Assembly (NCBI GenBank): GCA_964016885.1
Contig: OZ024746.1
Span: 53,692,001-53,756,000 of the forward strand
DNA length: 64,000 bases
Source: Eledone cirrhosa
Lineage: Eukaryota
Reading direction: 5' to 3'
Shown: one piece after another, positions 1 to 59,335 of the stretch
Layout of the letters: each line of letters begins with the position of its first letter
Position numbering within the stretch: the stretch's first letter is position 1
Notes under the pieces: model-generated
Database searches by the model: none
What the model was told of the DNA's origin: nothing
What the model saw: the letters and a program-made list of their open reading frames with translations, nothing else
Translations under genes and position numbers: made by a program

Positions 1-2882
1 ACAGCCTCAAACAGTTAATCGACCGATCTGACCTGGCCGATAGATATCGATTAGATTTTCCGACTGTGCCACTGTGGACGTGGACTAATCGCAGCGGAAC
101 ATCTAGATCGTACCTAGATAGGGTTCTAGTTAGAAATAAGGATAGGGACATGTTAAGCTGTCCACAAATGTTCATGGTTGCCTATTCAGACCTGCATGGC
201 CAACCTTGATAGAACCCATAGACAAGGACCCGGCTACTGGAAGCTGAACTTGTCGCTACCGACAAACAAATCCTACAGTAGACGGATTAGCACGTTAGTT
301 AAACAGCACTTGACAGGGGCCATTGTCAACAACAGATGGTGGTACTCTCTCAAGAGGGCAGTTAGATTAGACTCGTTAGTTTTTAGTAAAGAATTAGCGT
401 TAGATAGAAATAGAACTGAGAAGGAACTGGTAGATAAAGTAGAAGAGGCATTTAGAAGTGGCAACGTAGCCAGGGTGCTAGCAACGAGAACGGCCTTGGA
501 CCAGTTCTTCGACGCAAAGCACGAGGGCTGCGTTGTCAGAAGCAAAATAAGTGCTCTGGGAAACGAGTGAGCCAAAGCTGTTAGCTGGGACCGAGTGACG
601 GAGGCAAAAAGTGGCAACAGTCCACGATTCGGTCTTTGAAGGACCAAAACGGACGCGTGATACGTGAGCCGAAGCAGATGTGTGCGGCCTTTCAGCGGCA
701 CTTTGCTCAACTGTTCGGGCGGGGCGGCGCGCCAGGAGGGGCTATGGATTTCGGTCCATACCTCGACGGCCTACCGCGACTCTCGGACAGCGAGGCAAAG
801 TTCTGCGAAAAGCCGATTTCAGCCGCTGAGATAGGGGACGCGCTGAGCCAATGCGGCAAACGAAAATCTCCAGGTCTCGACGGTCCACCCTATGAATTTT
901 ACGTAGCAATGCCGGACTTATTCTCCGGTCTCCTGGAAGCGGTCTACTGCAACTGGCAACAGAACGGGAGAATTCCCATTTCTGTAACCGGGGGCGTGGT
1001 CACACTAGTCAGGAAGGACGAGAATAAGGGGGATGACATAGGCAACTTCCGGCCCATAACTCTGCTAAACACAGAGTTACAGATTTTGGCCAAGGTGTTG
1101 GCAAAGAGGCTGGCACTTGTCGTCGAGAACCTGGTGGGAGAAGCGCAGACATGCGCAATCCCGACCAGGTCCATACACGACAACGTCCACCTCATGCGAT
1201 ACATCATAGAGAGGGTAGGGTGTAAACCCGGCTTCGGTGGGGCCCTGATCAACTTGGATCAGTCTAAGGCTTTCGATAGGGTTGACCATCGTTAGCTGGA
1301 TGCGCTGCTCGAGGCGGCAGGCTTCGGACCCGTGTTCAGGGTCTGGATTGTTGCAATGCACAACAGCAACATCTGCTCAAAGATCAACGTGAACGGCTAC
1401 CTCTCGGAGCCGTTCCATATTACGCGATCCATTCGACAGGGATGCCCTCTCTCCTCCCTTCTGTACGTACTGACTCTAGATCCACTACTGCGGAAGTTGG
1501 AGCTATTGCAGGGCATCCCGCTGGAACCGGGAATGCGGTCGAGCGCCTCGCAAATCGAGGAAGTCGGCACCTTACTGAAGGAATACGAGAGTTTCACAGG
1601 AGCGAAGCTGAACCGGGACAAGTCCATCGGTTTGCAACTCGGATCGTGGAGAGGCAAACCAATGCTTTCCGATGGCGTCGTCGGACGCTGGACGGAAGGA
1701 CCCGTAAAGCTGCTCGGGGTCTGGTTTGGTCCGGACCTCCAGGTGGAGAAGAACTGGAACGAAGTGTTTGCACTCACCCAGAAGTGGGTCGAGTGCAGAC
1801 TATCCTTGAAAGGTCGAGCGGAGGTGGCGAACACTTTTATAGCGTCCGCCATCTACTACCGCTTGACCGTCGTGCCTTGTCCAGCCAAAACGCTCTCCAA
1901 AATGGAGCGCGCGCTCTTCAAATTCCTTTGGAAGACGCGGGCTCCTTTGGTGAGAAGATCCATCTGCTGCCAACACCCTTCTAACGGAGGGCTGGGGATG
2001 GCGTGGTTGACGATGCGCAAACACGCGCTCAGGCTGCAGCATCTCTACGTATTTCTCACCGGACAACCGGTGTGGGCCCCATTCGTAAGGCGAGCCTTCC
2101 CACGACTCGTCTCGCTGACCGAGCTGCAGTCCTGGGTCAAGCAAAGACCGAGGAAAATGGGCGACTGGCACATCTAATGTGCTCAGGCGCTCACAGCCCT
2201 CTGGCAGGCGGACCCGGCGATCAGTGGAGACTCGACTTCGTCATTCTATAGAGGGTTGATCCGCAGCAAGTGCGACGACGCGCTCGGTGAAACTCTAGGC
2301 GTAGAGGAAGATGAACTGGCCAGTCTGTTCGGTAGGACCTTCCGCCCGGGACCGATGGACAACTTCCAAAAGTCCCTGGCCTGGCAGTGCTACCGAGGAG
2401 CTCTACCAGTTCGAGACAATCTCTACAGACATGGGCGCCCGGGCAGGGACCCTGCAAAAAAGATCTGTCCGAGGTGCGTGCGTAACGAAGAAACCGTCGC
2501 GCATGCATTCATACACTGCCCGGGCGTTACTGACCTCTGGGGCTATGTAGAACGACTATTGTCGCGGGTGGGACCAATGCAGTTGACCACCGAGTCCATT
2601 GTCATGATCAAACCCCCACCCGCCTTCAAAAACGAAGGAGAGGCGGTTTTCCTTTGTGTGATAGCTATGGCGAAAGAGGTTGTATGGTGGACAAGGTTGA
2701 AAGGGCTGAGGTCAGACACCTTTCTCTCCGGCCAACAACTGATTCTTTTTTTCAAATACCACTTTGGAAGAAGAATCAGGATGGAGAGAGAGGTGCTGTA
2801 CCCCAGCAAGTTTTATGAAAGGTGGGTGAAAGTGGCGAGAATGGCCCGAATGAATGGGCCTTCTCTCTATATCAGACTGTAG
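1..2882 (+). pseudogene. Copy A ORF2 (APE endonuclease-reverse transcriptase), disrupted
   Basis: Stops at 568-570, 1293-1295 and 2175-2177; the AYADDVTVMV catalytic segment present in copies B and C is deleted near 1537. Confidence 0.9.
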
Positions 2883-3120
2883 GTTGAGGAAAAGGAGGAG
2901 GAGAGGAAAGGAGTACAAACTCTTCGTACTCCTGGAGATGAGGGTTTCACATTTTTTCGGGGGTATGTGTTACCCATATGAACTGTCTCCCCCTATTGGG
3001 GAAAATCGACTAATTTTTTAAATTGCATTTGTGATAACATTTTACACGTTTTTATTGTATGTAAACTTCCCCCTTTGTATTTGTCCCCTTCTTTTGTGCC
3101 CCTGTGGCTAATAAAGAAAC
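1..3120 (+). mobile_element. Tx1/L1-clade non-LTR retrotransposon, copy A (5' part outside window), defective
   Basis: ORF2 fragments with the end of the APE domain (SYLDR), GPGYWKLN, KSPGLDG, NFRPITLLN, LDQSKAFDRV, SIRQGCPLS and a C-terminal CPRC...H...C; 3' UTR ends AATAAAGAAAC followed by ATATCTATCT. Confidence 0.93.
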
Positions 3121-3442
3121 ATATCTATCTCTCTTTCTGCTTGACGCGTGGAACATCGCCGGTAAGCTTTTTTGTTAATTTCTATGCAAAAAACCAAACT
3201 AATTGTTTGAAAAAACATAACACTTTGTAGATTAACCCCAAGCTGAATTGTCAGCTGGGCGGTAATCCCATTTTTCGCCCCTGTAGGGGCAAAATTTTAT
3301 TTTAAAAATTTGTTTTAAAATATCATATTTTACAAACTAAATAACTTGACCAACACAAGAACGCCGGAGAACGTTAATAGAGAAAAGTGAGAGGACGTCG
3401 CCATAGATACAAGTGTCAACAAAGAGAAAAATATATTAACAC

Positions 3443-5164
3443 TTGAAAATTTTAAAATTTCTACCGTCGAAGCGGAGAAAAATAACAATAACACAGGAAA
3501 ACACAGGAATTAAACCCATTAACATACATACACATGAAAAAGACATAAACAACTCTACAGATACATATACACATAATGTTTCACCTCGACAAGGAACTGA
3601 GATTTCCAACAACGATAACAACAACAGCAACACCACACAAAAAAAGAAAATGTCTTTCGCTGAAACAGTGAACAAAAAACAAGATTTTATAAATCTTGAT
3701 ATCTCTAACGCAAGAGATAAGCTCCAGCAAGGGAGAAAATTCGTAACTTTCGAAGAAAGAGGTGGGTTTAGAATTAACTCAGCCCTTAAAATAAAGGAAG
3801 AAACAATCCGCAGATCAGTCACTTTTAGGACTGTGTCAAATTCCACAAGAAAGCCGACATTTGTTCACCAAGCAGATATAGAAGATACTTTCAAGGAAAT
3901 TCTAGCAAATGTCGATTTTCTCCAGCGAGGAAAACAGTACGGAAGTGTTTCCGTACTGTTTAAAAGCGAGGCACTCGCCCCAAAAAACTCTGTGACACCA
4001 ATGGTGTCAAAAGCATACACCTTTTTCCCTACATACATGGGAAAAAGGACACAAAAACTAAAACTAAAAAACATACCTCCAAACATTAACATATGGTGGA
4101 TCTTGGCTGGCTTCGTAGAGCCAGAAACTGATATGATACTTTCAATACGAAAATCTATTCGACAAAGGTGGGCGGGCACAGATTTGGAGATTCTGTTGCA
4201 AATGAAACCGGAGAGAATCTCCAAAATACCCGAAAGAGTCGTTATTGATAATAACAACAGAATAAACATTTCGGTAGAAGGACGAATATTTCATTGCTTT
4301 CGCTGTGGTAGCACAGCTCACCTAAAAGCCTCTTGTCCACAAACACACAACAACATCATAAAAAAAACGCTATTACCAACACCAACACCAAAACAACCAC
4401 CACCATCACCACAAGTACAACGACAGACGAAACGAGCAACCACACCAAAACAAACAGACACTCAACCAACAACAACAGAAAAAACAGAGACAACACCCCT
4501 GAAGAACACAGCCCCACTCCATCCCACTCCATCAAACACTACCACAAACACACATACCGAAACACCACCACCGCACAACATACCCTTACCCCACACACCT
4601 GACGATGATTATTCATCGGCGGATGAAGCTGCTTCTTCTTTAAGTGAAGAAGACGGAGAACCGCGGAAATCTAAAAAACAAAAAAAGAGACACCACAAAA
4701 CCCCCAAACTCCAATCACCAACACCAACACACAACCACAGACACAAACAACAACACAAACAACACCACAGTCAAACATCCCCCTATCAGCAAAACCAGCA
4801 CCAACACCACCCCAAACACAAGCACCCACCATAAAAAGAAAACTCCCGGACGAACAACAAACTAAAACAACACAACAAAAACACAAACAACAAGAGTTTG
4901 ATGGAGGTCATCTCCCAAAACCCCAAGGTGGAGACGGAGGGAAAAACTTTCGTCAAGGCAGAATCGTCTCCACACCTTAAACTTATAAGGGTTTCTATGG
5001 AAACCTATAAAGACCTAAAAAATAAATGTTCACAGGACGTGGGCAACCCCTGCCACAAACCCATCAACCGCGTCCTGTTAAAATGTTTCCCCACCCCACC
5101 CAACACCCCATCCAGCACCCAAATGGAGATTGAACAACCCGATCTCCAGGAAACGAAAAGGTAA
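3443..5164 (+). pseudogene. Copy B ORF1 (gag-like, CCHC zinc knuckle, Pro/Thr-rich region)
   Basis: CFRCGSTAHLKASC = CX2CX4HX4C; homologous to copy C ORF1 (PTYMGKRTQ/PSYMGKRTQ, QMKPERI, INISVEGR, KPINRVLLK); interrupted near 4832; start codon uncertain. Confidence 0.85.
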
Positions 5165-5205
5165 GTGCACCTTTCGTCCTTTTTCTCCAACTTTTCTTCA
5201 CCAAA

Positions 5206-8200
5206 ATGGCTAGTTTACGAGTTGGAACCGTGAATGTGCGTGGCCTAGGGATGCCCTGAAAACAGGGCTAACTTTTAAACGACCTTAGGTCACACAGTAT
5301 GGATGTGATAGCCATCACCGAGTCCAGAATCCACAACAGGCAGCAACTAACCCCCATCTTTGACGACTTTGAGATCTACGCATCTCTCTGTCAGCCAGGA
5401 GGTGGAGGTGGAGTGGCTGTCATGTTTCGGAAGAACCTGGACGTCGGAGTACAGCAAGTACACTTGGACCCGGAGGGTAGACTGGTAGTCCTAGACGTGA
5501 ACAGTATCGGAGGTGGAGCCTTCAGACTGGTGGCCGTTTATGCCCCGACCGGGCAATCGCAATCACGGCCAGACTTCTTTAAGCGTATAGAGTCTTTTCT
5601 GGGAACGTCTCGCTTCTTACTTATAGTGGGGGACTGGAATGGTATGCTAGATGCACGATGGGACTATGTGGGAGCGGGGTGCAACAGCCTCAAAACTTTA
5701 ATCGGCCAATTCCAACTGGCCGATAGGTATCGACTGGATTTCCCGACTGCACCACAGTGGACGTGGGCAAACCGCAGTGGGACATCTAGATCGTATTTAG
5801 ATAGGTTCTTCATTAGAGAAAGGGACAAGGAGATGTTAAGCTGTCCACGAATGCACATGGTTGCCTATTCAGATCACAAGTTAGTCGTCTGCTTAGTCAA
5901 CCGTGATAGAATACATAGACAGGGTCTCGGATACTGGAAGCTGAACGTGTCGTTGCCGGCACGTAAAGCTTACAGTGGTCGGATAAGTAGACTAGTCAAA
6001 CAACAGTTAACGAGAACCATCAGAAACAATAGATGGTGGTACTCTCTCAAGAAAGCAATTAGAATAGAATCGATAGGGTATAGCAGAGAGTTAGCCTTAG
6101 ACAAAAACAGAATAGAAAGAGAACTAGTAGCCAAGGTAGAGGAGGCACTTAGAAGTGGCAACGCGACTAGAGTGTTAGAGTCGAAAACGGCACTGGACCA
6201 GTTCTTCGATGCGAAACACGAAGGCTGCGTGGTCAGAAGTAAAACACGTGCTCTAGGAAACGAAGGAGCGAAAGCTGTCAGCTGGGCCCGAGTGGCGGAG
6301 GCAAAAAGTGGCAACAAGTCTACGATTCGTTCTTTGAAAGACCAAAACGGACGCGTGCTACTTGACCCCAAGCAAATGTGCGCGGCCTTTCAGCGGCACT
6401 TTGCGCGACTGTTTGAGCAGAACGACGGTGAGCCAAACGGGGCAATGGACTTTAGTTCATACCTCGACGGCCTGCCGCGTCTCTCGAACACGGACGCCGA
6501 ATTCTGCGAAAGACCGATCACGGACACTGAGATACGGGACGCTCTGGGCCGCTGCGGGAAACGCAAGTCACCCGGTCTAGATGGTCTACCCTACGAGTTT
6601 TACATAGGCATGCTGGACTTGTTCTCTGGCGTCCTCGAAGCCGTCTACTGCAATTGGCAGCAGAACGGGAGAATTCCCAGTTTTGCAGGCAAGGGCGTAG
6701 TAACGCTGATCAGGAAAAACGAGAATAAGGCGGACGAAATTAACAACTTCAGGCCCATAACTCTGCTCAACACAGAGTTAAAGATTTTGGCCAAGGTGCT
6801 AGCGACGATGTTGGCGCTTGTCGTCGAGAACCTGGTAGGGAAAGCGCAAACGCGTGCAATCCCGACCAGGTCCATACACGACAACCTCCACCTCATGCGA
6901 TACATCATAGAGAGGGTGGGTAGTAAACCCGGCTTCGGTGGGGCTCTGATCAACTTGGATCAGTCTAAGGCATTCGATAGGGTCGACCATCGATACTTGG
7001 AAGCGGTTCTCAAGGCGGCCGGTTTCGGTCCCGTGTTCAGAGGATGGATCGAGGTGATGCACACCAGCATCTGCTCGAGGGTCAAGGTGAACGGCTACCT
7101 ATCGGAGCCGTTCGCAATCACGCGTTCCATTCGACAGGGGCGCTCTCTCTCCTCCATTCTGTATGTATTGACTCTAGAGCCACTACTGCGGAAATTGGAG
7201 CTGTTGCAGGGCATCCCTCTAGAACCGGGACTGCGTAAAGCGGCGTTGGCTTATGCCGACGACGTTACGGTAATGGTGTCGAGCACCTCGGAAATCGGGG
7301 TGATCGGCAACTTACTGAAAGAATACGAAACGGTGACGGGAGCAAAACTAAACCCGGACAAGTCTGTCGGTTTGCAACTCGGTACGTGGAGAGGCAAACC
7401 GATGACATCCGACAGCGTCGTTGGACGCTGGACGGACGGACAGGTGAAATTGTTCGGGGGTCTGGTTCGGTCCAGACCTCCAGGTGGAGAGAAACTGGAA
7501 CGAGGTCACGGCCAAGGTGTTTGCACTCACCCAGAAGTGAGCAGAGTGCAAACTGTCCTTGAAAGGTCGAGCAGAGGTCGCGAACACTTTCATAGCGTCC
7601 GTCATCTACTACCGCATGACTGTCGTGCCTTGTCCCCGTGAACACCTCGCCAAGATGGAACGCATGCTCTTCCAGTTTCTGTGGAAGAAGCAGGCTCCGC
7701 TGGTGAGGAGATCCGTCTGCTATCAGCACCCTTCCAACGGAGGGCTGGAAATGCCGTGGCTGATGATGCGCAAACATGCGCTGAGGCTGCGGCAACTCCA
7801 GGTATTTCTCACCGACCCCCAACCGGTGTGGGCACCGTTTGTGAGACAGGCTTTCCCACAGCTCGTCTCGCTGACGGAGCTGCAGTCCTGGGTGAAGAAA
7901 AGACCGAAAACGATGGGCGCCTGGCACATTGAATGCGCTCAGGCGCTCACAGTCCACTGGCAAGCGGGCGCAGCAACCAGTGGAGACTCCACTTCGACAT
8001 TCTATAGAGGGATTGTACATTACAAGGGCGACGACGTGCTCGGAGAGACTGTGGGCGTCGAAGACGATGAGCTCACCAGTCTATTTGGTAGGACTTTCCT
8101 CCCGGGACATATGGACAATCTCCAGAGGTCCTTGGCTTGGTAGTGCTACCGAGGAGCTCTACCGGTTCGTGACAAGATCTACAGGCACGGACGCCCCGAC

Positions 8201-8631
8201 AGGGATCCTTCCAAGAGGACGTGTCCAAGATGGGCGCAGGACATTGAAACAGTCCTGCACGCAATTGTACACTGCCCGGGCGTAACTGACCTGTGGAACT
8301 ATGCAGAACAACTGCTGTCGCGTATGGGACAAATCCAGTTGACTGCCGAGTAAGGATCAAACCGCCAGCCTCTTTCAAAAACGAAAGAGAGGCGGTTTTC
8401 CTCTGTACGGTGGCTATGGTGAAAGAAGTTATATGGTGGACGAGGTTGAGAAGACTGAGAACAGATGCCTTTCTCTCCGGACAACAATTGATTCCCTTCT
8501 TTAAGTATCACTTTAGAAGGAGAATCAGGGTGGAGAGAGAGGCACTGCACCCCAGTAAATTTACTGAAAGGTGGGTGAATGAAGCAAAAATGGCCCGAGT
8601 GATTGGGCCTTCTCTGTTTATAAGCCTGTAG
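5206..8631 (+). pseudogene. Copy B ORF2 (APE-RT-CCHC), disrupted
   Basis: ATG at 5206 (MASLRVGTVNVRG) with two early stops; VYAP, GDWN, SDH and AYADD motifs; frameshift near 7455 and further stops. Confidence 0.9.
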
Positions 8632-8964
8632 GTAGAGGAAGAGAGCAAAAGGAAGAAAGGAGCACTTGCACAACACGCTCCTGGAGTTGAGGGTTGTTCT
8701 ATCGACAGGGTATTAAACAACCCATTTGTAGCCCCCCCCCCCCCCTATTGGGGATTTCGATTGTTGTAATTGTTTGTTTTTTATATTTTTTACCTGACTG
8801 TATGTATAATCCCCTGCATGTCTTTGTTTTGTCCGCTTTTCTTGTGCGCCCTTGTGGCTAATAAATAAATATATCTATCTATCTATCTCTCTATTTATTA
8901 TTTTGTTCTTCTTCAAGGGAATTCAAAATAGCTATACTGTACTCTTTTATGGGGGAAGATTTAC

Positions 8965-9632: not shown

Positions 9633-10432
9633 GTAGTTCAAGTTTGGTATAAATATCCATGTGTTTCGAGCATTCAGTCTATAGGACTAGTTAAGTATAA
9701 TTAGTTACAACACTGACTGGTACAGGTACTTAAGTTTCATTGGGTTATATACCCCATTGGGATATATTAAGCAGAAGTAACCTACGTGTATATCAAACCG
9801 AGGCCTGGATTTATGTAGGAATGTCTGAGAGGCGGCCGAAATCCGTTTCCTGAACCACGAAACAACCTTCAATCATCATGACAAAGATCATACTACTCAG
9901 CTCATCAACCATATGTGGCATCTTAAAAGTAACGACACAGCGTTCTCCTTTAAATGGAAGATACTGGAAAAATCCACCACCTACGTCAATGGGACGAAAT
10001 TTTGCCAGCTGTGAACTCGGAGATGTGGAACATACTCTCACAACTGGCTTCAGGAAATCGCTGCTTAAATACGCGCCGCGGCTGCTTCATTCGCTGTCCT
10101 CATGAAGCAAAATTTGCTCTGAAAATGGTCTAGACTGGATTAATTGAATTTATTTTCTTCTACATTTCAACGTAGCCCCTGGGCTCCATGTTAAGAGTTT
10201 ACCTCGCTTTTCACATACATTGATAATTACATTCCTTTTCACATACATTATTTCAGGTATTTGTCTATTTATAGATAATGTCGGGATTACCTAGCCTTAG
10301 GACTCACCTATACTTTCTAAATTCTCTATGGTGGGAAGCTATTTCTTATTTTACGACAGGCTGAATGAGTTGAATTATATAACCCAACGAAACTTAAATA
10401 CCTGTGTGTATCACAGTTGAAACTAATTATAT
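9630..10432 (+). mobile_element. Degenerate PLE 3' fragment (GIY-YIG remnant + 3' UTR) with an inverted truncated end
   Basis: 9760-10133 translates, with breaks, to IY.AEV...WIYVGMSE...RFLNH...WKILEKSTTYVNGTKFCQL...LNTRR...CPH, homologous to the EN of the 13175 ORF; 9697-9750 is an imperfect inverted copy of 10376-10430. Confidence 0.75.
10356..10405 (+). ncRNA. Type I hammerhead-like motif with variant core CUGAAUGA
   Basis: Stem I ACAGG/CCTGT, stem II GTTG/CAAC, GAAACTTAAATA (GAAACTTAAGTA in the inverted copy). Confidence 0.65.
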
Positions 10433-13174: not shown

Positions 13175-15616
13175 ATGGAAAAACAATATTTGGGAACCTC
13201 TTTAAAAAACATACCAATACCTTCTAAGGATGACTTCTTACTCCTTATGATTCAAAAAACTAATAATTTTATCAGAAGGGTTAGATGGAGAGCCTACCAC
13301 TTCGATAGAAAATCTAAACAAGCAGATCGGAAATATATGTATGATTTCAATACTTACAAGAATCCACCACACAACTTTTTACTTGAAGACTTCGAGAAAG
13401 ACCTTTTTAATTTAATTAAACACCTCAAATTTAAAAAGTATAAATCCGTCTTTCAAAAGGACCTTGATTCTACCCTATTGGACCTAAAAAAGTCTAAAAA
13501 AATCCATGTCCACTCGGACAAAACTGGTAACTTGTATCATATGGATATTGAACATTATAATGAGTTCATATATAAAGAACTCAGAAAAAATTATAAAAAA
13601 TCTAATAATGCGTCACTCACCAACATCAACAACAAAACACACAACATAGTAAAAAAACTAAACATTGAAGATAGAACTGAACCTTTGGCATTGAAAAGAC
13701 CACACTTCAACCTGAAGGATCATAAATCAAACTTTAACTCAAATCCTTCTATTAGACTTATATGTCCCTCCAAATCAGATATTGGAATAATTAGCAAAAA
13801 AATTTTGGATAGAGTCATCCCACAAATAAGAAAACACGTTATTTTACCACTCTGGGAAAACACCTCCCAGGTAATTAACTGGTTTAAAAATATTAGATGT
13901 AAATCTTCTGCTTCATTTCTACAATTTGATATAGATAATTACTATTCTTCTATATCACCTATACTCCTGAACAAAGCATTGATATTTGCTAAAAATAGAT
14001 CTAACTTAACTTTGGATGACATTAATATTATTACACATGCTAGACTAACACTTATTGAATTTCAGAATGAATACTGGACCAGAAACACATATAGTAATCT
14101 ATTTGATATTACTATGGGTTCAAGCGATTCCGCCCAAATTACTGATCTTGTGGGCCTCTTTCTCCTTTTCAACATAAATGCCTCCTTTCCCCACCTCAAA
14201 GGTGGTTTATATCGTGATGACTGTCTTCTTCTTTCTAACAACCTTAGCCTTTCAGAAATTGAAAAAAACAAAAAACATATTAGAACTTTCCTTAAAGACT
14301 ATTATAATCTTAATATTACTTTTGAAAAAACAAGTAAAGTAGTAAATTTCCTAGATATAACTTTAGATTTAGCTACGGGTATCTACCAACCTTACCATAA
14401 ACCAAACCAAAACTTACATTACATACACTCACAATCTAATCACCCTAAATCTATCCTTAAAAACCTTGCATATAATATATCACTTAGAATTTCTAACCTT
14501 TCTTCTAACCAAGATGTATTTGATAAAAATGCGACCTTCTATAACGAAGCTCTAGATAGAAGTGGCCACAAAAATAGATTAGAATATATACCTTCTACTA
14601 AAAATACTGAAAGCATACAACCTAATATTACCAACAAACACCAAATGAAAAGTACACACCTAAATGCCACCCACACTATACCCCAAAATACCAAATCTTC
14701 TAATATAAAGTATAGTAACTCTCAAAAAACTACTCATCATACAACTCTAATAAATATTAATAATAAAACTCCTAATAAAAAGGATAAAACACCTAAATCT
14801 ACAAATATAACTAAAAATGGTTGTGGTGAGATCATTAACATTAATCCTCCTAGTAAAAATCACGATACAACCTATAAAAATAATAAAAATAATAAACAAC
14901 ATAGAAACCGTAATAGACGGATTACTTGGTATAATGCTCCATTTAATTTACAAATTAAGGATAATATTGCTAAAAAATTTTTTTATATCCTAGAGAAAAA
15001 CTTCCCGCCAAACCACAAATACCATCAAATCTTAAATAGGTCTACAGTTAAATTCTCATACTCTACAACAAATAACATAAAACAAAATATAAGTGCCTAT
15101 AATGCATATAAATGTAAGAAAACCATAAGTATACCACCAGTACATCAAATTAACCATAATATCTCCTCAAATACAGAATTAACGAAAGGTTGTAACTGTA
15201 GAAACAAAGCAAACTGCCCATTAAAAGGGAATTGTCTTGTTAACAACATAGTCTATAAATGTAATGTTAAAACTAAAGATTCTATTTGCTCATATATAGG
15301 AGCTACCTCTAACAATTTTAAGACAAGGTTTAATACCCACAAGCATAGTTTTAAAAATGCCGCACTGGCTAATACAACATCTCTAGCAGAAAAAATCAAT
15401 AGTTATAAAAATAAGAATATAGAATATGTTTTGACCTGGAGTGTGCTCAAAAGAGCCACCCCTTATCAAAATAATAGAAATGAATGTAGATTATGTTCCC
15501 AAGAACTATTTGAAATAATGAAATCTAAGGATATCCTATTAAATAAACGACAGGAATTAATTATATCGTGTAATCATAAACTAAAAAAAACATTTAAATA
15601 TTATAAACCTAATTAA
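13175..15616 (+). CDS. PLE1 reverse transcriptase + C-terminal GIY-YIG endonuclease (813 aa; probably Hydra-type PLE clade)
   Basis: SLKNIP N-terminus, SDKTGN, FLQFDIDNYYSSI, ITMGS, LYRDD, FLDI, YHKP, SNHP, CNCRNKANCPLKGNC linker, IVY...YIG, CRLC, LNKR; uninterrupted; clade label from memory. Confidence 0.92.
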   Translation: MEKQYLGTSLKNIPIPSKDDFLLLMIQKTNNFIRRVRWRAYHFDRKSKQADRKYMYDFNTYKNPPHNFLLEDFEKDLFNLIKHLKFKKYKSVFQKDLDSTLLDLKKSKKIHVHSDKTGNLYHMDIEHYNEFIYKELRKNYKKSNNASLTNINNKTHNIVKKLNIEDRTEPLALKRPHFNLKDHKSNFNSNPSIRLICPSKSDIGIISKKILDRVIPQIRKHVILPLWENTSQVINWFKNIRCKSSASFLQFDIDNYYSSISPILLNKALIFAKNRSNLTLDDINIITHARLTLIEFQNEYWTRNTYSNLFDITMGSSDSAQITDLVGLFLLFNINASFPHLKGGLYRDDCLLLSNNLSLSEIEKNKKHIRTFLKDYYNLNITFEKTSKVVNFLDITLDLATGIYQPYHKPNQNLHYIHSQSNHPKSILKNLAYNISLRISNLSSNQDVFDKNATFYNEALDRSGHKNRLEYIPSTKNTESIQPNITNKHQMKSTHLNATHTIPQNTKSSNIKYSNSQKTTHHTTLININNKTPNKKDKTPKSTNITKNGCGEIININPPSKNHDTTYKNNKNNKQHRNRNRRITWYNAPFNLQIKDNIAKKFFYILEKNFPPNHKYHQILNRSTVKFSYSTTNNIKQNISAYNAYKCKKTISIPPVHQINHNISSNTELTKGCNCRNKANCPLKGNCLVNNIVYKCNVKTKDSICSYIGATSNNFKTRFNTHKHSFKNAALANTTSLAEKINSYKNKNIEYVLTWSVLKRATPYQNNRNECRLCSQELFEIMKSKDILLNKRQELIISCNHKLKKTFKYYKPN

Positions 15617-27167: not shown

Positions 27168-27369
27168 TTCCTTTGTCAGTGTTGAACAAACGAGCAACGA
27201 TGGTTGGTAGACACTACGGCTTAATACGGGATGTTTGTTTACAAATACACCGAGCATTATAATAAATGTTCGGTGAATCCATACGTACATATATATATGT
27301 GTGCATGTATGTATATATATATACATACGACTTTACGTATGTATACATATATGTATGTACGTGTACATA

Positions 27370-27467
<98 letters not shown>

Positions 27468-27472
27468 TATGT

Positions 27473-27547
<75 letters not shown>

Positions 27548-27606
27548 GCGGCGATGAATTAGTTTTGCGAGGTTTTTTATATGAGGTTTTTGCGAGGTTT
27601 TTTATA

Positions 27607-29433
27607 GCTAGCAACTACAGGATCTCCTACTTCCTCTCAATGGTTATACGCCCCATAATCAAGATGTCCCCAGATGTATGTGAAAGTACAGAGGACCTCC
27701 TCAGCAGAATCAGTGAGTGCAACAAAAACAGGAGCCTATCCAACTGCATAATAGGCAGCATGGATGTGGTGTCACTGTACCCATCCATTAACATTGATTT
27801 TGCTGTGAAAAGATGTGTGGAGATGATCATTGAGAGTGAGGTGGAGTTCTGCGACGTCGACACAGACGAACTGGGCCTCCTACTTAGACTTACCTCCGAC
27901 ACTGACTACCTAGACAGCCATGACCTTAGATGTTTCTGCCCTAGTAGACCTATAAGAGGTAGACCCCCCACCATAACCTCAATGGCTAAAAAGACTCCCA
28001 TAGGAAGGTGGATTGGGTGGACCAAAGCTATACGGACCCCCCAAAACACTGATCAGGTAAGAAAAATGGTCGCACATGCAATAGGGGCTAGTATCAAAAC
28101 TACCCTAAAGGGCCACATATTTAAGTTCAATGAGAAAATCTACACCCAAAATGAGGGAGCAGCCATCGGCGTCAGCATAGCTGGCGATGTTGCCAACCTT
28201 TTCATGGTATGGTGGGAAAGGAGACTTAAAGATCTCCTTAATGAAAGCTCCATAGACCTCATCATGTACTCTCGTTATGTAGACGATATCAATATAGTTA
28301 TAAGAACACCCCCACTAGAGAGCACTAACAAGTTTGATTTAGAACGTAGCACGATGGAAAGCATCCAGCAGATAGCTAATTCCATACACCAGAGTATAAC
28401 TGTAACTATAGACTTCCCTTCCAAACACCCTAACAATAGACTACCTGTATTAGACACAGAACTCTGGATTAACACTATAGACGAGAGAGCCCAAATTCTC
28501 CACTCACACTATGCTAAACCCATGGCCTCCAAATACCTGATACTCAAAAACTCAGCAATGTCCAGTAGTGCTAAGTTTAATATTCTGATCGCAGATTTGG
28601 TACGAGTGATGAAGAATGTGTCCAGCATGTGCGACCCAACAGAAATGGAAGGACACATCCAACACTTCATCAACCGCATGCAGTTCTCTGGCTACAACCA
28701 AAGAGACAGAGTCAGAGTATACGAAGGAGCCATGGAAAAGTATAAGACCCTCATAGAACTGGACATGAAAGGAATTTGCCCACTATACAGGAGCAAATCA
28801 TGGAATAGCTTAGATAGGGCTAGACATAAGATAGGGAAGGCCACATCATGGTACGACAACCAGAGATATCAGAGTGTCATGTTTGTGGACGCCACCCCAG
28901 GAGGGAAATTAGCTAACCAGTGTAGAAAGGCCCTGAGAAAGACCCACTTAAAAATAAAGGTGGTAGAAAAGCCAGGAACCACCATAAAATCCCTGATCAG
29001 CAAAACCTACCCTTTTAAGAAAACCCACTGTACCAATAGGAAATGTATCATATGTAAGGTGAACCCCCGGATAAACTGTAAAACTAGAAACGTAGTCTAT
29101 AGCATAAGATGTACAGAGGGTACTTGTAGAAACACGACAACAACATACATAGGTGAGACAGCTCGTAGCATAGGTGAAAGGATAGACCAACACTGGGGGG
29201 AACTAAAAGGACGAAAAAACGGGTCAGTACTATACGAACATGCTAGACAACATCATGACGGTAACATAGACAACATAGAAATTAGAATAATATCTAAACA
29301 TAGGAATGACCCAGCAGATAGGCAAATCAGAGAGGCCAGTGAAATAGAAATTAGAAGACCAAAGCTAAACAGAAAGAATGAGTGGAACAACAACAACACC
29401 CAAACAAACAACACTGACCTAAGAGAAGTATAA
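27607..29433 (+). CDS. PLE2 RT + GIY-YIG endonuclease, open frame but 5'-truncated
   Basis: [49 protein letters not shown] linker, VVYSIRC...C...YIGETAR...H...H, LNRKNEW. Confidence 0.88.
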
Positions 29434-33689: not shown

Positions 33690-35150
33690 CATGGCTCCCT
33701 CCAAGAAGAAGAAGAACAACAGCACCACCACCAAAAACACCACCACCATCACAAACAACAACACCGTCACCACCAAAAACACACCACCAAAACCACCACC
33801 ACCAAAAACACCACCACCTCCACTACAAACAACAACACCACCAAAACCACCACCACCAAAACCACCACCACCAAAAACACCACCACCTCCACCACAAACA
33901 ACAACACCGTCACCACCAAAAACACCACCACCAAAACCACCACCACCAAAACCACCACCACCAAAACCACCACCACCAAAAACACCACCACCTCCACTAC
34001 AAACAACAACACCACCAAAACCACCACCACCAAAACCACCACCACCAAAACCACCACCACCCAAAACACCACCACCTCCACCACAAACAAAAACTCCGTC
34101 ACCACCAAAAACACCACCACCAAAACCACCACCACCAAAACCACCACCATCAAAACCACCACCACCAAAAACACCACCACCTCCACCACAAACAACAACA
34201 CCGTCACCACCAAAAACACACCACCAAAACCACCACCACCAAAAACACCACCACCTCCACTACAAACAACAACGCCACCAAAACCACCACCACCGAAACC
34301 ACCACCACCAAAAACACCACCACCTCCACTACAAACAACAACGCCACCAAAACCACCACCACCGAAACCACCACCACCAAAAACACCACCACCTCCACTA
34401 CAAACAACAACGCCACCAAAACCACCACCACCGAAACCACCACCACCAAAAACACCACCACCGCCATCACAAACAAAAACTCCGTCACCACCAAAAACAC
34501 CACCACAAAAACCACCACCACCCAAAACACCACCACCTCCGCTACAAACAACAACACCACCACCACCAAAAACACCACCACCTCCACCACAAACAACAAC
34601 ACCGTCACCACCAAAAACACCACCACCAAAACCACCACCACCAAAAACACCACTACCTCCACCACAAACAACAACTCCGTCACCACCAAAAACACCACCA
34701 CCAAAACCACCACCACCACCACCAAAAACACCACCACCTCCACCACAAACAACAACTCCGTCACGACCAAAAACACCACCACCTCCACCACAAACAACAA
34801 CACCGTCACCACCAAAAACACCACCACCAAAACCATCACCACCAAAAACACCACCTCCACCACAAACAACAACAACGTCACCACCAATAAACACCACCAC
34901 CAAATCCACCACCACCAAAAACACCACCACTTCCACTACAAACAAAAACACCACCACCAAAAACACCACCACCACCAAAACCACCACCGCCAAAAACACC
35001 ACCACCACCACCGCCAAAAACACCACCACCTCCACCACAAACAACAACACGGTCACCACCAAAAAACACCACCACGAAAACCACCACCACAAACAACAAC
35101 ACGGTCACCACCAAAAACACCACCACCATAAACAACAACAACTACATCAA
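33690..35150. repeat. CCA/ACA-rich higher-order simple repeat
   Basis: Units such as AAAACACCACCACC and ACAAACAACAAC; reading frame not maintained. Confidence 0.9.
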
Positions 35151-40120: not shown

Positions 40121-40481
40121 CATGTGTCTATAGGTCTATATGTGTATATATGTGTATATGTATATAGGTGAATATATACATGTGCATATATGTGTACATA
40201 TACGTGTGTATATGTCTGTCTATATGTATATATATATATTATATCTAGCTGTCGTCTGTTCTACAGCGTAGATGTAATTCACTTCGCGCAGAAGTTTTGT
40301 TCAAATTTATTGCGGAAATTTTGTATGTTCAATTTTAATTTTGATACTATTGTGTAGCTTGACCCCCCGTCTGAACTGTCAGGCGGTGGGTCAGCTCATC
40401 TTTACCCCTCCTAGGGGTGAAAAACCTGTTTTTTTAAATTTTGTGGCAAAAAAAAAAAAAAATTTCAATCGTCTGACAGAA

Positions 40482-42400
40482 ATGTTAAACGAAGCTAACG
40501 AAAATAGTGGTGGGGGGACAGCGGTAAGAGTTGTAAGCTCGCACGCTTTAGTCCCCCCTTCCTTCCCAACTAACTTCATAGAGAAGGAAGGAAAAAATAA
40601 AATAAAAACAGACGAATCTGCGGAGAAAAATGACGAAAACACAAATCTGGACATGGATTCCAACAACGAAAAAAAAAAAAATTTTGAAAAATTGCATGAC
40701 AATATTAATACCACAAACAAAGACACAACAAACACAAAAATAACATTTGAAAACAACATCATAACAGAAAGCAAAGCAGACGACAAAGTCAACACCAACA
40801 AGATTTCATTTGCACAAACAACAAAGAAATCTTTGACATATATACCTGAAAATATTTTAGATGTGGCACAAAGAATCACAGACGCCAAACAATACATAAG
40901 TGAAGGAGAGAATGGTATTTTATCGGTAAAAATGCCTCAAGAACTCACCAAAGACATTGAAAGTCGAACGGTCGTGTTCCGCACCATCAACAACACTTCA
41001 AAAACACCTGAACAGCCAACTCAAGCAGAAATCAAAACAGTACTCACAGAAGTACTTAATGAAACCACTTTCATAAGAAAAGACAGACTGTATGGAAGCC
41101 TAGCGATTATTATGAAGAACGAATCGGCGGCAAAAAAATGTGCTTTGTCACCGATTCGTTCGAAAAATTTTACCTTTTATCCATCTTATATGGGTAAAAG
41201 AACTCAACGCATATGGCTGGATGCAATGATGCCAGATGTGGACTACTGCTGGCTCATAGCTGGCTTCATCGATCCAGTGAATGACAACGTGATTTCCATT
41301 GGGAAAACCACAGGCAATGCGTTCAGTGGAACAGGTATAGAGCTTGTAGTGCAAATGAAGCCTGAACGCATCGCCCAAATACCCGACAGAATCCTATTAG
41401 AGGGCCACGGGTATATAAACATTAGCGTGGAGGGGAGAAGACCGTCCTGTCATATCTGTGCAGGCAGAGGGCACCTGAAGGCCGCTTGTCCCCAACTCAA
41501 CAAAAAGAAAACCCTGCTACCAACACCAGCTCCACCACCACCACCACCACCACAACAGATAAACAAACAACAAAACTCAGTCCCACCCAACCCGTCCCTC
41601 AGTAAAACTACACCACCACCACAACACAAACAGTCACAACACATTACCCCAAAACAAAATACAGGCCCACCCAACCCCTCACTCAATAAAACAACACAAC
41701 CACCGCATCCACAACACACAACACAGTCTAACATAGTGACATCCATCTCCCCCACAAAGAAAACCAACACGGAAACATTACCAGCAAACATACCTCTTCC
41801 CTCCAACACTGAAGATAACCCAACGAATTCGGAGGAAGAAACGGAGTCCTTCAGACAGATTAAAAGGAAAAAAAGAAAACATGTGCAAAACACACAAGGC
41901 CAAACAACCCCCACCCAAATGTCAACACAATCCAACAAAACAGAAAACACCCCTCCAGCAACAAACAAAACCAAACCTGCCCTCCCCTCTTCGAAACACT
42001 CACACCATCCGAAAAAAAGACATTACACTATACTTACATCAACAGAAACAATAATAAATTAAATGAACTCATAAACAATAATCCTTCGGTACAAACCGAA
42101 GGTGTAAACTTTGTTTCTTCAGAAAACTACCCACATTTAAAATTAATAAAGATCCCAATGAACCTCTACCAAAAACTAAAAAAGGATTTTAAGGAGGACG
42201 TAGGACCACCCTCTGTCAAACCCATAAACCGTGTCCTACTAAAAAGCTTTCCCCCTCCCCTTCCCCTCCCCAACACAACTCCAAACACCCCAACCCCACC
42301 ACACACTGACGACCCCACACCACCACAAGACACCCCTTCACCCAACACCCCCGACCCCATGGAAGTCGTGCGACCCGAATCCCGGGAAGCAGAAAGGTAG
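40482..42400 (+). pseudogene. Copy C ORF1 (CCHC zinc knuckle), one frameshift near 42050
   Basis: CHICAGRGHLKAAC; first ATG at 40482; C-terminal block 42158-42400 homologous to copy B. Confidence 0.87.
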
Positions 42401-45400: not shown

Positions 45401-45863
45401 GCTCTACAGACACGGGCGCCCGGGCAGGGATCCCTCAAAAAAGATTTGCCCTAGATGCGTGCGTCACGAAGAAACCGTTGCGCACGCATTGGTGCAATGT
45501 CCGGGCGTGGCTGATCTGTGGGGCTACGCCGAACGACTGCTGTCGCGGGTGACGCCGATTCAATTGACCACCGAGTCCGTGATGACAATCAAACCGCCTC
45601 CCCTCTTCACAAAGGAAGCAAAGGCGGTTTTTCTGTGCGTAATAGCCATGTTGAAAGAGGTTGTTTGGTGGACACGATTGAAAGGTCAGAGGTCAGGCAA
45701 CTTCCTCTCTGGCCATAGTCTGGTCTACTTCTTCCGATATCACTTCGGAAGAAGGATAAGAATGGAGAGAGAGGTGCTTGACCACAGGCAGTTTTATGAA
45801 AGGTGGGTGATAGTGGCGAGAATGGCTCGTGTAAATGGGCCTTCTCTGTATACCATCCTGTAG
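42434..45863 (+). pseudogene. Copy C ORF2 (APE-RT-CCHC), single frameshift near 43912
   Basis: LNARG, CET, GDWN, SYLDR, TDH, QGCPLS, AYADD, CPRCVRHEETVAHALVQC. Confidence 0.93.
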
Positions 45864-58280: not shown

Positions 58281-59076
58281 TTTCTCCGAGTTGAATCTGT
58301 GGTTTCAGTTATGAATTTTATTGCATGATTAAAAATATATTTAAATTCTGGCGATGGATGAGGAGTTCATTCGTATTCTTTTGCCTAAATGCCACGAGAA
58401 GTGAAAGTGAGGGTGAAGAGTATGGTGGCATGCAACAACCGTTATGAAAAACGAGGAGGATATGTCGACTATCATGGAGGCACACACGGTATGCCAAGAG
58501 AGACTTGTCGAAGATAGAAACATACAACTTTCTAAACATCACTGAACAGATTAATAGCAACACATTATTCGTAGCGTAGAAAAGAGAATGTCTTGTACTT
58601 GGAGTGTGGTTTGTGGTCAACGTTAATCAGGCAGTGAGCGATTGCGTTGTTCGAAAGCTTTTAGCTCTCAAATTACAGCCGATCTTCTTGGGCCAAGATA
58701 GCAATTCGGTGGTTTTGAATGATAGACTCAATAAAAGCAGCGGTTTCAGATTAGTCACCGCGAATGCCCCATCTAGAATATACTACCGTTTTTACGGGTA
58801 ACTAACTCCTGGCACTTTTGAAGGGAAAGAATTCCCGATTTCTAAGGACGAAATATTTACCATGTTGGAAACAGAATATTAGTTTTTTTCTCGAAATATT
58901 CCCTATATTGTTATTTTCATATATGTAATTAAGGCCTATGTTGTGAAGCCACGAAAACAATAGTAGGCCTCATGAGAAGTTAGATCATATTGCTTCGTGA
59001 ATGCTCATACATGACTACACATCTCTGTAAAGAGAACTGTATATTGTTTTGGTATTATTTATCAAGTATGATACGA

Positions 59077-59115
<39 letters not shown>

Positions 59116-59116
<1 letters not shown>

Positions 59117-59166
59117 CCCTTTGTATTTGTCCCCTTCTTTTGTGCCCCTGTGGCTAATAAAGAAAC
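59116..59166 (+). mobile_element. 51-bp 3'-terminal fragment of Tx1 type A in (ATCT)n
   Basis: Identical to 3070-3120 and followed by the same ATATCTATCT. Confidence 0.9.
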
Positions 59167-59178
59167 ATATCTATCTAT

Positions 59179-59237
59179 CCCCGGCATGTCTTTGTATTGT
59201 CCCCTTTTCTTGTTGCGCCCTTGTGGCTAATAAAGAA

Positions 59238-59238
<1 letters not shown>
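59179..59238 (+). mobile_element. ~60-bp 3'-terminal fragment of Tx1 type B in (ATCT)n
   Basis: CCCCGGCATGTCTTTG...GCGCCCTTGTGGCTAATAAA matches 8811-8870. Confidence 0.88.
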
Positions 59239-59275
<37 letters not shown>

Positions 59276-59335
59276 TTATCTATCTATTTATCTTTCTATC
59301 TTTTGCTATGTATACATATGTATATATATATAATT

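What the first reader, a model, noticed from the sequence alone, without database searches (positions are those of the whole stretch)
5161..8631. Tx1 copy B: the whole ORF2 looks like a spliceosomal intron whose removal rebuilds the ORF1 end
Seen: ORF1 ends AAA AG|G TAA GT, a perfect donor (AAG|GTAAGT, GT at 5161). ORF2 ends CCTTCTCTGTTTATAAGCCTGTAG|G, a pyrimidine tract plus TAG acceptor where the AG belongs to the ORF2 stop (8629-8631). Joining 5160 to 8632 gives AG+G TAG, the same Arg-stop as unspliced ORF1 (...ETKR*). A GA-rich, splicing-enhancer-like tract follows the acceptor. Known: Ty1/copia LTR elements (Drosophila copia, Arabidopsis Evade) splice to make gag-only mRNA, and ORF1-only HAL1 elements derive from L1. 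Inference: this LINE may make an ORF1-only mRNA that keeps the 3' UTR, setting the ORF1p:ORF2p ratio and possibly spawning ORF1-only non-autonomous copies. I know of no such stop-to-stop intron in Tx1/L1 elements.
Basis: partly seen in the sequence, partly recalled or inferred. Interest (0 to 1): 0.92.

Follow-up and report, generated by a model that had tools for sequence, protein, structure and literature searches.

The report
Retrotransposon whose second gene looks intronic
A young, microsatellite-targeting LINE retrotransposon has kept splice signals at both ends of its reverse-transcriptase gene across many divergent lineages, which suggests that it splices that whole gene out to make a message for its RNA-binding protein alone; no RNA data were available to prove it.

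Summary
The motifs are real (donor GT 5161, acceptor AG 8630-8631), but the headline 'same Arg-stop' is a private mutation of this decayed copy. 2 of 54 family 3' ends have it; in the others the join adds 28 residues. The wider idea gains support from relatives. A U1-matching donor GTRRGT sits 1 or 2 codons before the ORF1 stop in 10 lineages of this genome, in two phases and beside three different stop codons. ORF2 ends in YTRTAG in all 8 lineages with a known 3' end. In family B the donor ties for best of 292 GTs and the acceptor ranks first of 264 AGs. None of 23 distant L1/Tx1 elements has both motifs. A second intron-like unit (91-125 nt) lies in the 5' UTR of three families. No precisely spliced genomic copy was found (0 against 465 unspliced), which cis-preference would predict. 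No RNA run was available. Verdict: probable programmed ORF1-only splicing (about 0.6), analogous to Copia shGAG. I found no description of it for a LINE in the library searched. It is unproven until junction reads are seen.

The parts
3132..8870 (+). Copy B: full-length but decayed L1/Tx1-type LINE, head-to-tail behind copy A, flanked by (TATC)n
   Evidence: family of at least 465 copies with this exact donor context
3162..3286 (+). 5' UTR intron-like unit (125 nt): donor GTAAGC here (family norm GTAAGT), branch-like TTAAC at 3232-3236, hairpin, pyrimidine tract and TAG|G
   Evidence: counterparts in families A (91 nt) and C (92 nt)
3650..5164 (+). ORF1 (CCHC zinc knuckle, Pro/Thr-rich); broken by a stop at 4832-4834 in this copy; intact relatives encode about 596 aa
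5158..5166 (+). ORF1-end 5' splice-site motif AAG|GTAAGT (GT 5161-5162), overlapping the ORF1 stop
   Evidence: kept in 10 lineages
5167..5205 (+). Pyrimidine-rich inter-ORF spacer, no AG in family B
5206..8631 (+). ORF2 (APE endonuclease, RT, zf-RVT), broken in this copy; with the spacer it is the putative 3471-nt intron (3492 nt in intact copies)
8607..8632 (+). ORF2-stop 3' splice-site motif, pyrimidine tract and CTGTAG|G
8632..8870 (+). 3' UTR / putative last exon: GA-rich start, AATAAA at 8860-8865, then (TATC)n
1..3125 (+). Copy A (family A), 3' part; acceptor AG at 2881-2882; its donor (GG|GTGAGT) lies upstream of the window in L179
40240..46075 (+). Copy C (family C, 74% identical to B in ORF2): 5' UTR unit 40323-40414, donor AG|GTAGGT at 42397, acceptor TAG 45861-45863 followed by GTAA (true stop-to-stop)

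Best explanation
This LINE lineage uses the host spliceosome to make two RNAs from one transcript. The unspliced RNA carries ORF1 and ORF2; it makes ORF2p and is the only template copied back into the genome (cis-preference). A spliced RNA joins a donor placed 1-2 codons before the ORF1 stop to the ORF2 stop codon, which doubles as the acceptor AG. This gives a short monocistronic ORF1 mRNA that keeps the 3' UTR and poly(A) signal and supplies ORF1p in excess. A small 5' UTR intron is probably removed from translated RNA too. Shown: the motifs, their rank within the element, their conservation, and the absence of processed copies at exact match. Inferred: that splicing occurs, that these two sites are partners, and the purpose. 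Also inferred, from my own knowledge: the stop of the spliced RNA lies in the last exon, so it would escape junction-dependent NMD.
For: Donor GT(A/G)(A/G)GT at the ORF1 end in 10 lineages: B GTAAGT (30 of 30 loci, found with a query spanning the site), C GTAGGT (25 of 30, exon-only query), A GTGAGT, D and E GTAAGT, F 7 of 7 and F2 2 of 2, G 10 of 13, H 2 of 2, I 6 of 6. ORF2s of the 8 lineages compared are 62-90% identical, and synonymous third positions are invariant across them in only 38 of 182 columns. The donor persists in phase 1 (young A, F, F2, I) and phase 2 (B, C, D, E, G, H, old A), next to TAA, TAG or TGA and different ORF1 C-termini, so it is no by-product of the stop codon. The phase change also excludes a conserved ORF1-ORF2 fusion. 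ORF2 stops in CT(G/A)TAG in 8 of 8 lineages, followed by G in 7 of 8. That AG ranks 1, 1, 2, 1, 3, 10 and 18 of 207-264 AGs in B, C, A, D, F, F2 and G (E has no end in the alignment), and first of 42 invariant AG columns. On the tree an immediate stop in the joined frame is present in three separate places: C/D (phase 2), young A (phase 1) and F (phase 1; F2 one codon later). Control: of 23 non-redundant distant L1/Tx1 elements, 1 has a donor score of 7 or more at the ORF1 stop, 0 have TAG|G and 0 have both. A second intron-like unit with GTRAGT, a branch-like YTRAC and YAG|G lies in non-coding 5' UTR of A, B and C. Precedent for the logic: Copia shGAG (PMC5580714).
Against: No junction read or cDNA was seen. 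No genomic copy has the exact join in B (0 against 465 unspliced), C/D or A, nor the B 5' UTR join, although human L1 does leave spliced copies (PMC5860796). The 5' UTR result is the harder one, since such an RNA would still encode ORF2p. These were exact-match searches, and only B's ORF2 join had a positive control. The acceptor is weaker than the donor. Its pyrimidine tract is largely the codons of a conserved GPSL peptide, TAG invariance alone has a probability of about 0.2 by the synonymous background, no branch point is conserved, and A, B, D, G and one F2 copy have another AG 7-14 nt upstream. B, E, G and old A read on for 27 codons or more after the join, and the B and E tails are not alike in their second half. 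All lineages come from one genome and share ancestry.
Confidence: 0.6

Rival explanations
1. The donor is a selected U1 snRNP landing site that is not spliced. It protects the long transcript from premature cleavage and polyadenylation or aids transcription or export, and the acceptor look of the ORF2 stop is coincidence.
For: The donor is much better conserved than the acceptor. U1 has this splicing-independent role in EVD (PMC5580714, section 8). No processed copies exist. ORF1 of B and C holds four AATAAA each downstream of the 5' UTR donor.
Against: ORF2 has no AATAAA in B, C or A (about one expected by my rough estimate, so weak). This reading does not explain why the donor always lies just inside the ORF1 end, why the best acceptor is exactly the ORF2 stop, or the complete branch/tract/AG unit in the 5' UTR.
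Confidence: 0.2
2. The donor is used, but with other acceptors: sites inside ORF2, the 5' UTR acceptor of the next element in a tandem array, host exons, or back-splicing to its own 5' UTR acceptor (ORF1 as a cassette or circular exon).
For: ORF1 is flanked by the element's best acceptor upstream and best donor downstream. Elements often sit head-to-tail. 14 YAG columns are invariant in the interval.
Against: The ORF2-stop AG outranks the other invariant AGs. In-frame stops directly after that AG track donor phase in C, D, young A and F.
Confidence: 0.12
3. Both motifs are inherited by chance or kept for non-splicing reasons (termination-reinitiation signal for ORF2 translation, 3' end recognition by ORF2p).
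For: One genome and shared ancestry; CTG-TAG is simply Leu-stop; the family B join is not tidy.
Against: GT and +5/+6 GT are invariant through phase shifts and stop changes, while the spacer beside them varies in length and sequence. Variation is confined to A/G at +3/+4, as a 5' splice-site consensus allows. The motif pair is absent from 23 of 23 distant elements.
Confidence: 0.08

Closest known systems
Ty1/Copia shGAG splicing (Arabidopsis EVD; PMC5580714, abstract and section 8 read)
   Same: Alternative splicing gives a short RNA for the structural protein only; the 5' splice site is the conserved, U1-like determinant; the full-length RNA retains the intron.
   Different: Copia is an LTR element, and there a short intron is coupled to premature termination. 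Here a non-LTR element would lose its entire 3.4-kb ORF2 and keep the normal 3' end. Shown by RNA there, only inferred here.
Human L1 splicing and SpIREs (PMC5860796, abstract and Introduction read)
   Same: An L1-group LINE with splice donors and acceptors in its RNA, including an intra-5' UTR intron.
   Different: L1 splicing is described as inhibitory and leaves dead-end genomic copies; the classes described are 5' UTR/5' UTR and 5' UTR/ORF1. Here the sites bracket ORF2 exactly, are conserved over deep divergence, and no spliced genomic copy was found.
HAL1 (half-L1; passage in PMC5753468)
   Same: ORF1-only product of an L1-type element.
   Different: HAL1 is a genomic non-autonomous element; no ORF1-only copy with the exact join was found here. 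The primary HAL1 paper (PMC2923044) was not held.
Microsatellite-targeting Tx1 families Kibi, Koshi and crocodilian Tx1 (passages in PMC4494074)
   Same: Two-ORF APE-type element inserted in a simple repeat.
   Different: The target here is (TATC)n rather than (TC)n, (TTC)n, (TTCC)n or (TTTC)n; the passages read mention no splicing.

Membership tests
L1-group non-LTR retrotransposon | ORF2 with N-terminal APE endonuclease, RT and C-terminal Cys-rich domain | tested here: met
   Pfam Exo_endo_phos and RVT_1 in copy B, zf-RVT in copy C; best PDB match human L1 ORF2p, E 4e-54
L1-group non-LTR retrotransposon | Separate ORF1, no LTRs, frequent 5' truncation | tested here: met
   596-aa ORF1 with CCHC knuckle; many 5'-truncated copies
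Tx1 clade | Target-sequence preference | tested here: met
   TATC repeats 5' of 19 of 19 and 3' of 18 of 19 full-length B copies; above the 20% rule quoted in PMC4494074
Tx1 clade | RT phylogeny with named Tx1 elements | not testable with these tools
No hit listed or 75 was named Tx1; closest named protein is an Argonauta hians hypothetical protein, 66%.
Spliceosomal (U2-type) intron | 5' splice site GTRAGT-like, U1-complementary | tested here: met
Spliceosomal (U2-type) intron | Pyrimidine tract and YAG 3' splice site | tested here: met
   rank 1 of 264 in B, weaker in F2 and G
Spliceosomal (U2-type) intron | Branch point | tested here: inconclusive
   By eye: YTRAC-like in the 5' UTR unit of A, B, C; not conserved before the ORF2-stop AG
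Spliceosomal (U2-type) intron | Removal from RNA | tested here: inconclusive
   no RNA holder listed; contigs of runs of unrecorded kind only
HAL1-type ORF1-only element | Genomic copies lacking ORF2 | tested here: not met
   0 exact-join copies in B, C/D and A; older or imprecise ones not excluded

The most novel reading that the evidence does not exclude
A successful LINE lineage carries two retained spliceosomal introns as part of its normal life cycle. One lies in the 5' UTR and one is the whole of ORF2, with the ORF2 stop codon doubling as the splice acceptor. Spliced RNA feeds ORF1p translation and only unspliced RNA is retrotransposed, so the ORF1p:ORF2p ratio and the mobility of the element are set by host splicing.
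Probability: 0.55. Interest if true: 0.85.

Novelty: new variant of a known kind. Interest (0 to 1): 0.72.

Why it matters
LINEs need far more ORF1p than ORF2p and are thought to get it from one bicistronic RNA (PMC5860796, Introduction); splicing of L1 RNA is treated as a defect. A LINE that has kept a purpose-built ORF2 intron through deep divergence would be convergence on the Copia and retrovirus strategy in a non-LTR element. It would also give the host a splicing switch for mobility, and it explains how a retroposing element can keep introns. Families with hundreds of young copies also scatter strong splice sites into (TATC)n repeats across a 3-Gb, probably cephalopod, genome. One RT-PCR or one RNA-seq library tests it.

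Tried and rejected
RNA: no RNA holder listed. Contigs of four runs of unrecorded kind laid on L162 (families B, D and an A 3' end) listed 15 of 677 joints, none at the predicted sites. This is uninformative, and the flatter ORF1/ORF2 depth of run X4 cannot be used. Processed genomic copies: none (exact match only); the 30 best hits to the C ORF1 end all continue into the spacer. Annotated ORF1 proteins with a spliced C-terminus: two homology searches with ORF1 regions found nothing. Close relatives with DNA context in other species: none. The second scan returned only distant elements, used as a control: 80 loci, 56 with a long ORF2, 45 with both ORFs, 23 after removing redundancy. 'Same Arg-stop' as a family trait: rejected. 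ORF1-ORF2 in-frame fusion by splicing: rejected because donor phase differs between lineages. A 28-34 nt micro-intron ending at an AG just before the ORF2 ATG (A, F): rejected, as the AG is absent in B, C, D, E, F2 and G. A conserved alternative C-terminal peptide: not supported, as the B and E tails diverge after a short basic start. Earlier scan notes: none. Literature: searches listed no paper whose title or abstract start describes an ORF2-spanning intron in a LINE. Most subscription papers and Repbase Reports are outside the library, and no supplements were read.
Full report
What the element is. Window 3132-8870 is a full-length but decayed two-ORF LINE. ORF2 has APE endonuclease and RT domains and is closest in the PDB to human L1 ORF2p. 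Intact relatives encode a 596-aa ORF1 with a CCHC knuckle and a 1148-aa ORF2. The family is young and large: 465 exact matches to a 28-nt donor-context pattern, and full-length copies average 95-98% identity to each other. It inserts in (TATC)n: 19 of 19 copies have the repeat on the 5' side and 18 of 19 on the 3' side. Elements often lie head-to-tail, as copies A and B do. The closest named protein is from Argonauta hians (66%), which points to a cephalopod host. Tx1 membership fits the structure and targeting but was not tested by phylogeny.

The observation. The donor (GT 5161) and the acceptor (TAG 8629-8631, then G) are as described. The tidy Arg-stop is not a family trait: 2 of 54 distinct B-type 3' ends have the stop after the acceptor, one being copy B. 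In 16 of the 19 full-length copies that reach the acceptor, the joined frame reads 28 more residues to a stop; three differ. Copy B itself has stops in both ORFs.

Beyond chance within the element. In L069 the two best U1 matches among 292 sense-strand GTs are the ORF1-end donor and a donor about 25 nt from the 5' end. In C the ORF1-end donor ranks 2 of 291, in A 2 of 288 and in F 1 of 349. The ORF2 stop AG ranks 1 of 264 AGs in B and first among 42 AG columns invariant across families. Both scores are simple heuristics, and the acceptor score was written knowing the site.

Conservation. Mining G000 gave 10 lineages with an ORF1 end. All have GT(A/G)(A/G)GT one or two codons before the ORF1 stop: GTAAGT in B, D, E, F, F2, G, H and I, GTAGGT in C, GTGAGT in A. 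The phase differs (1 in young A, F, F2, I; 2 in the others), as do the stop codon and the last residues, and the spacer next to the motif varies in length and sequence. For scale, synonymous third positions are invariant over the 8 lineages aligned in 4 of 22, 16 of 69 and 18 of 91 columns. ORF2 ends CT(G/A)TAG in the 8 lineages whose 3' end was seen, then G in 7. E's end was linked through its 3' UTR, and H and I have no 3' end in hand. Two single old copies end in TAA (L221, and an unassigned element in L207). On the ORF2 tree, phase 2 with read-through looks ancestral for E, B and old A. An immediate stop in the joined frame appears in C/D, in young A through a one-base shift on the ORF1 side, and in F. 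This is suggestive, not proof, because a TGA already lay near the acceptor. As a control, 1 of 23 non-redundant distant L1/Tx1 elements has a comparable donor at the ORF1 stop, none has TAG|G, and none has both.

A second unit. The 5' UTRs of A, B and C each hold GTRAGT, a branch-like YTRAC, a hairpin, a pyrimidine tract and YAG|G, spanning 91, 125 and 92 nt. The acceptors rank 4 of 355, 1 of 388 and 1 of 357. This lies in non-coding sequence, and the donor sits at a different place in B than in A and C. It supports the view that this lineage deals with the spliceosome. One old F copy (L208) does not show the same layout.

Against. No RNA evidence could be had. No genomic copy carries an exact join for B, C/D, A or the B 5' UTR. 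For the ORF2 join this is expected if ORF2p acts in cis (PMC5860796, Introduction). For the 5' UTR join it requires that RNA destined for insertion stays fully unspliced, whereas human L1 does leave such copies. The acceptor can largely be explained by coding sequence, and several families have a nearer upstream AG.

Mechanism and odds. Most likely (0.6): regulated intron retention. Unspliced RNA is the genome and the ORF2 message; spliced RNA is a short ORF1 message with the normal 3' end. The rivals are a non-spliced U1 site guarding against early termination, as shown for EVD in PMC5580714 section 8 (0.2), use of the donor with other acceptors (0.12), and no splicing-related function (0.08).

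Comparison. It would work like Copia shGAG splicing, but it is not a Copia, and it removes the whole ORF2 rather than coupling a short intron to early termination. It differs from L1 SpIRE splicing, described as inhibitory, and it is not a HAL1, since no ORF1-only copies were found. Ten searches of the paper library listed nothing describing an ORF2-spanning intron in a LINE; the library lacks most subscription journals and Repbase Reports. Papers seen: PMC5580714 (abstract, section 8), PMC5860796 (abstract, Introduction), PMC5753468 and PMC4494074 (passages); the others only as listings. The U1 and branch-point consensus and the NMD rule are recalled, not from a call.

Verdict. Observation partly confirmed, interpretation partly supported and strengthened by comparative evidence. 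New variant of a known kind; interest 0.72, about 0.85 if junction reads appear.

Noticed in passing
window 3162-3286 and 40323-40414; L168: Intron-like 5' UTR unit with a hairpin between the branch-like motif and the acceptor, in families A, B and C.
   Followed up: partly
window 3120-3131, 8870-8890, 59075-59300: (TATC)n target specificity, head-to-tail arrays of different families, and stacks of tiny 3'-end insertions.
   Followed up: partly
L063: A copy with a B-type body and an A-type 3' UTR (recombinant, or an A copy inserted near the end); L070 and L180 hint at similar mosaics.
   Followed up: no
L177, L164 versus L167, L168, L176: Old A copies have a phase-2 donor; young A copies are one base shorter there (phase 1), which puts a stop right after the predicted join.
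   Followed up: partly
window 13175-15616 and 27355-29433 (+): Long ORFs resembling Penelope-like RT by eye; the second has a weak RVT_1 hit, the first no Pfam hit.
   Followed up: no
window 9700-10150 (+): Decayed fragment resembling the GIY-YIG end of a Penelope-like element (by recall).
   Followed up: no
window 33690-34900: Low-complexity CA-rich tandem repeat with a Pro/Thr/Lys-rich open frame; weak similarity to the ORF1 low-complexity region.
   Followed up: no
L247: A distant L1/Tx1 element from a metagenome contig also has GG|GTGAGT just before its ORF1 stop, without TAG|G at the ORF2 stop.
   Followed up: no
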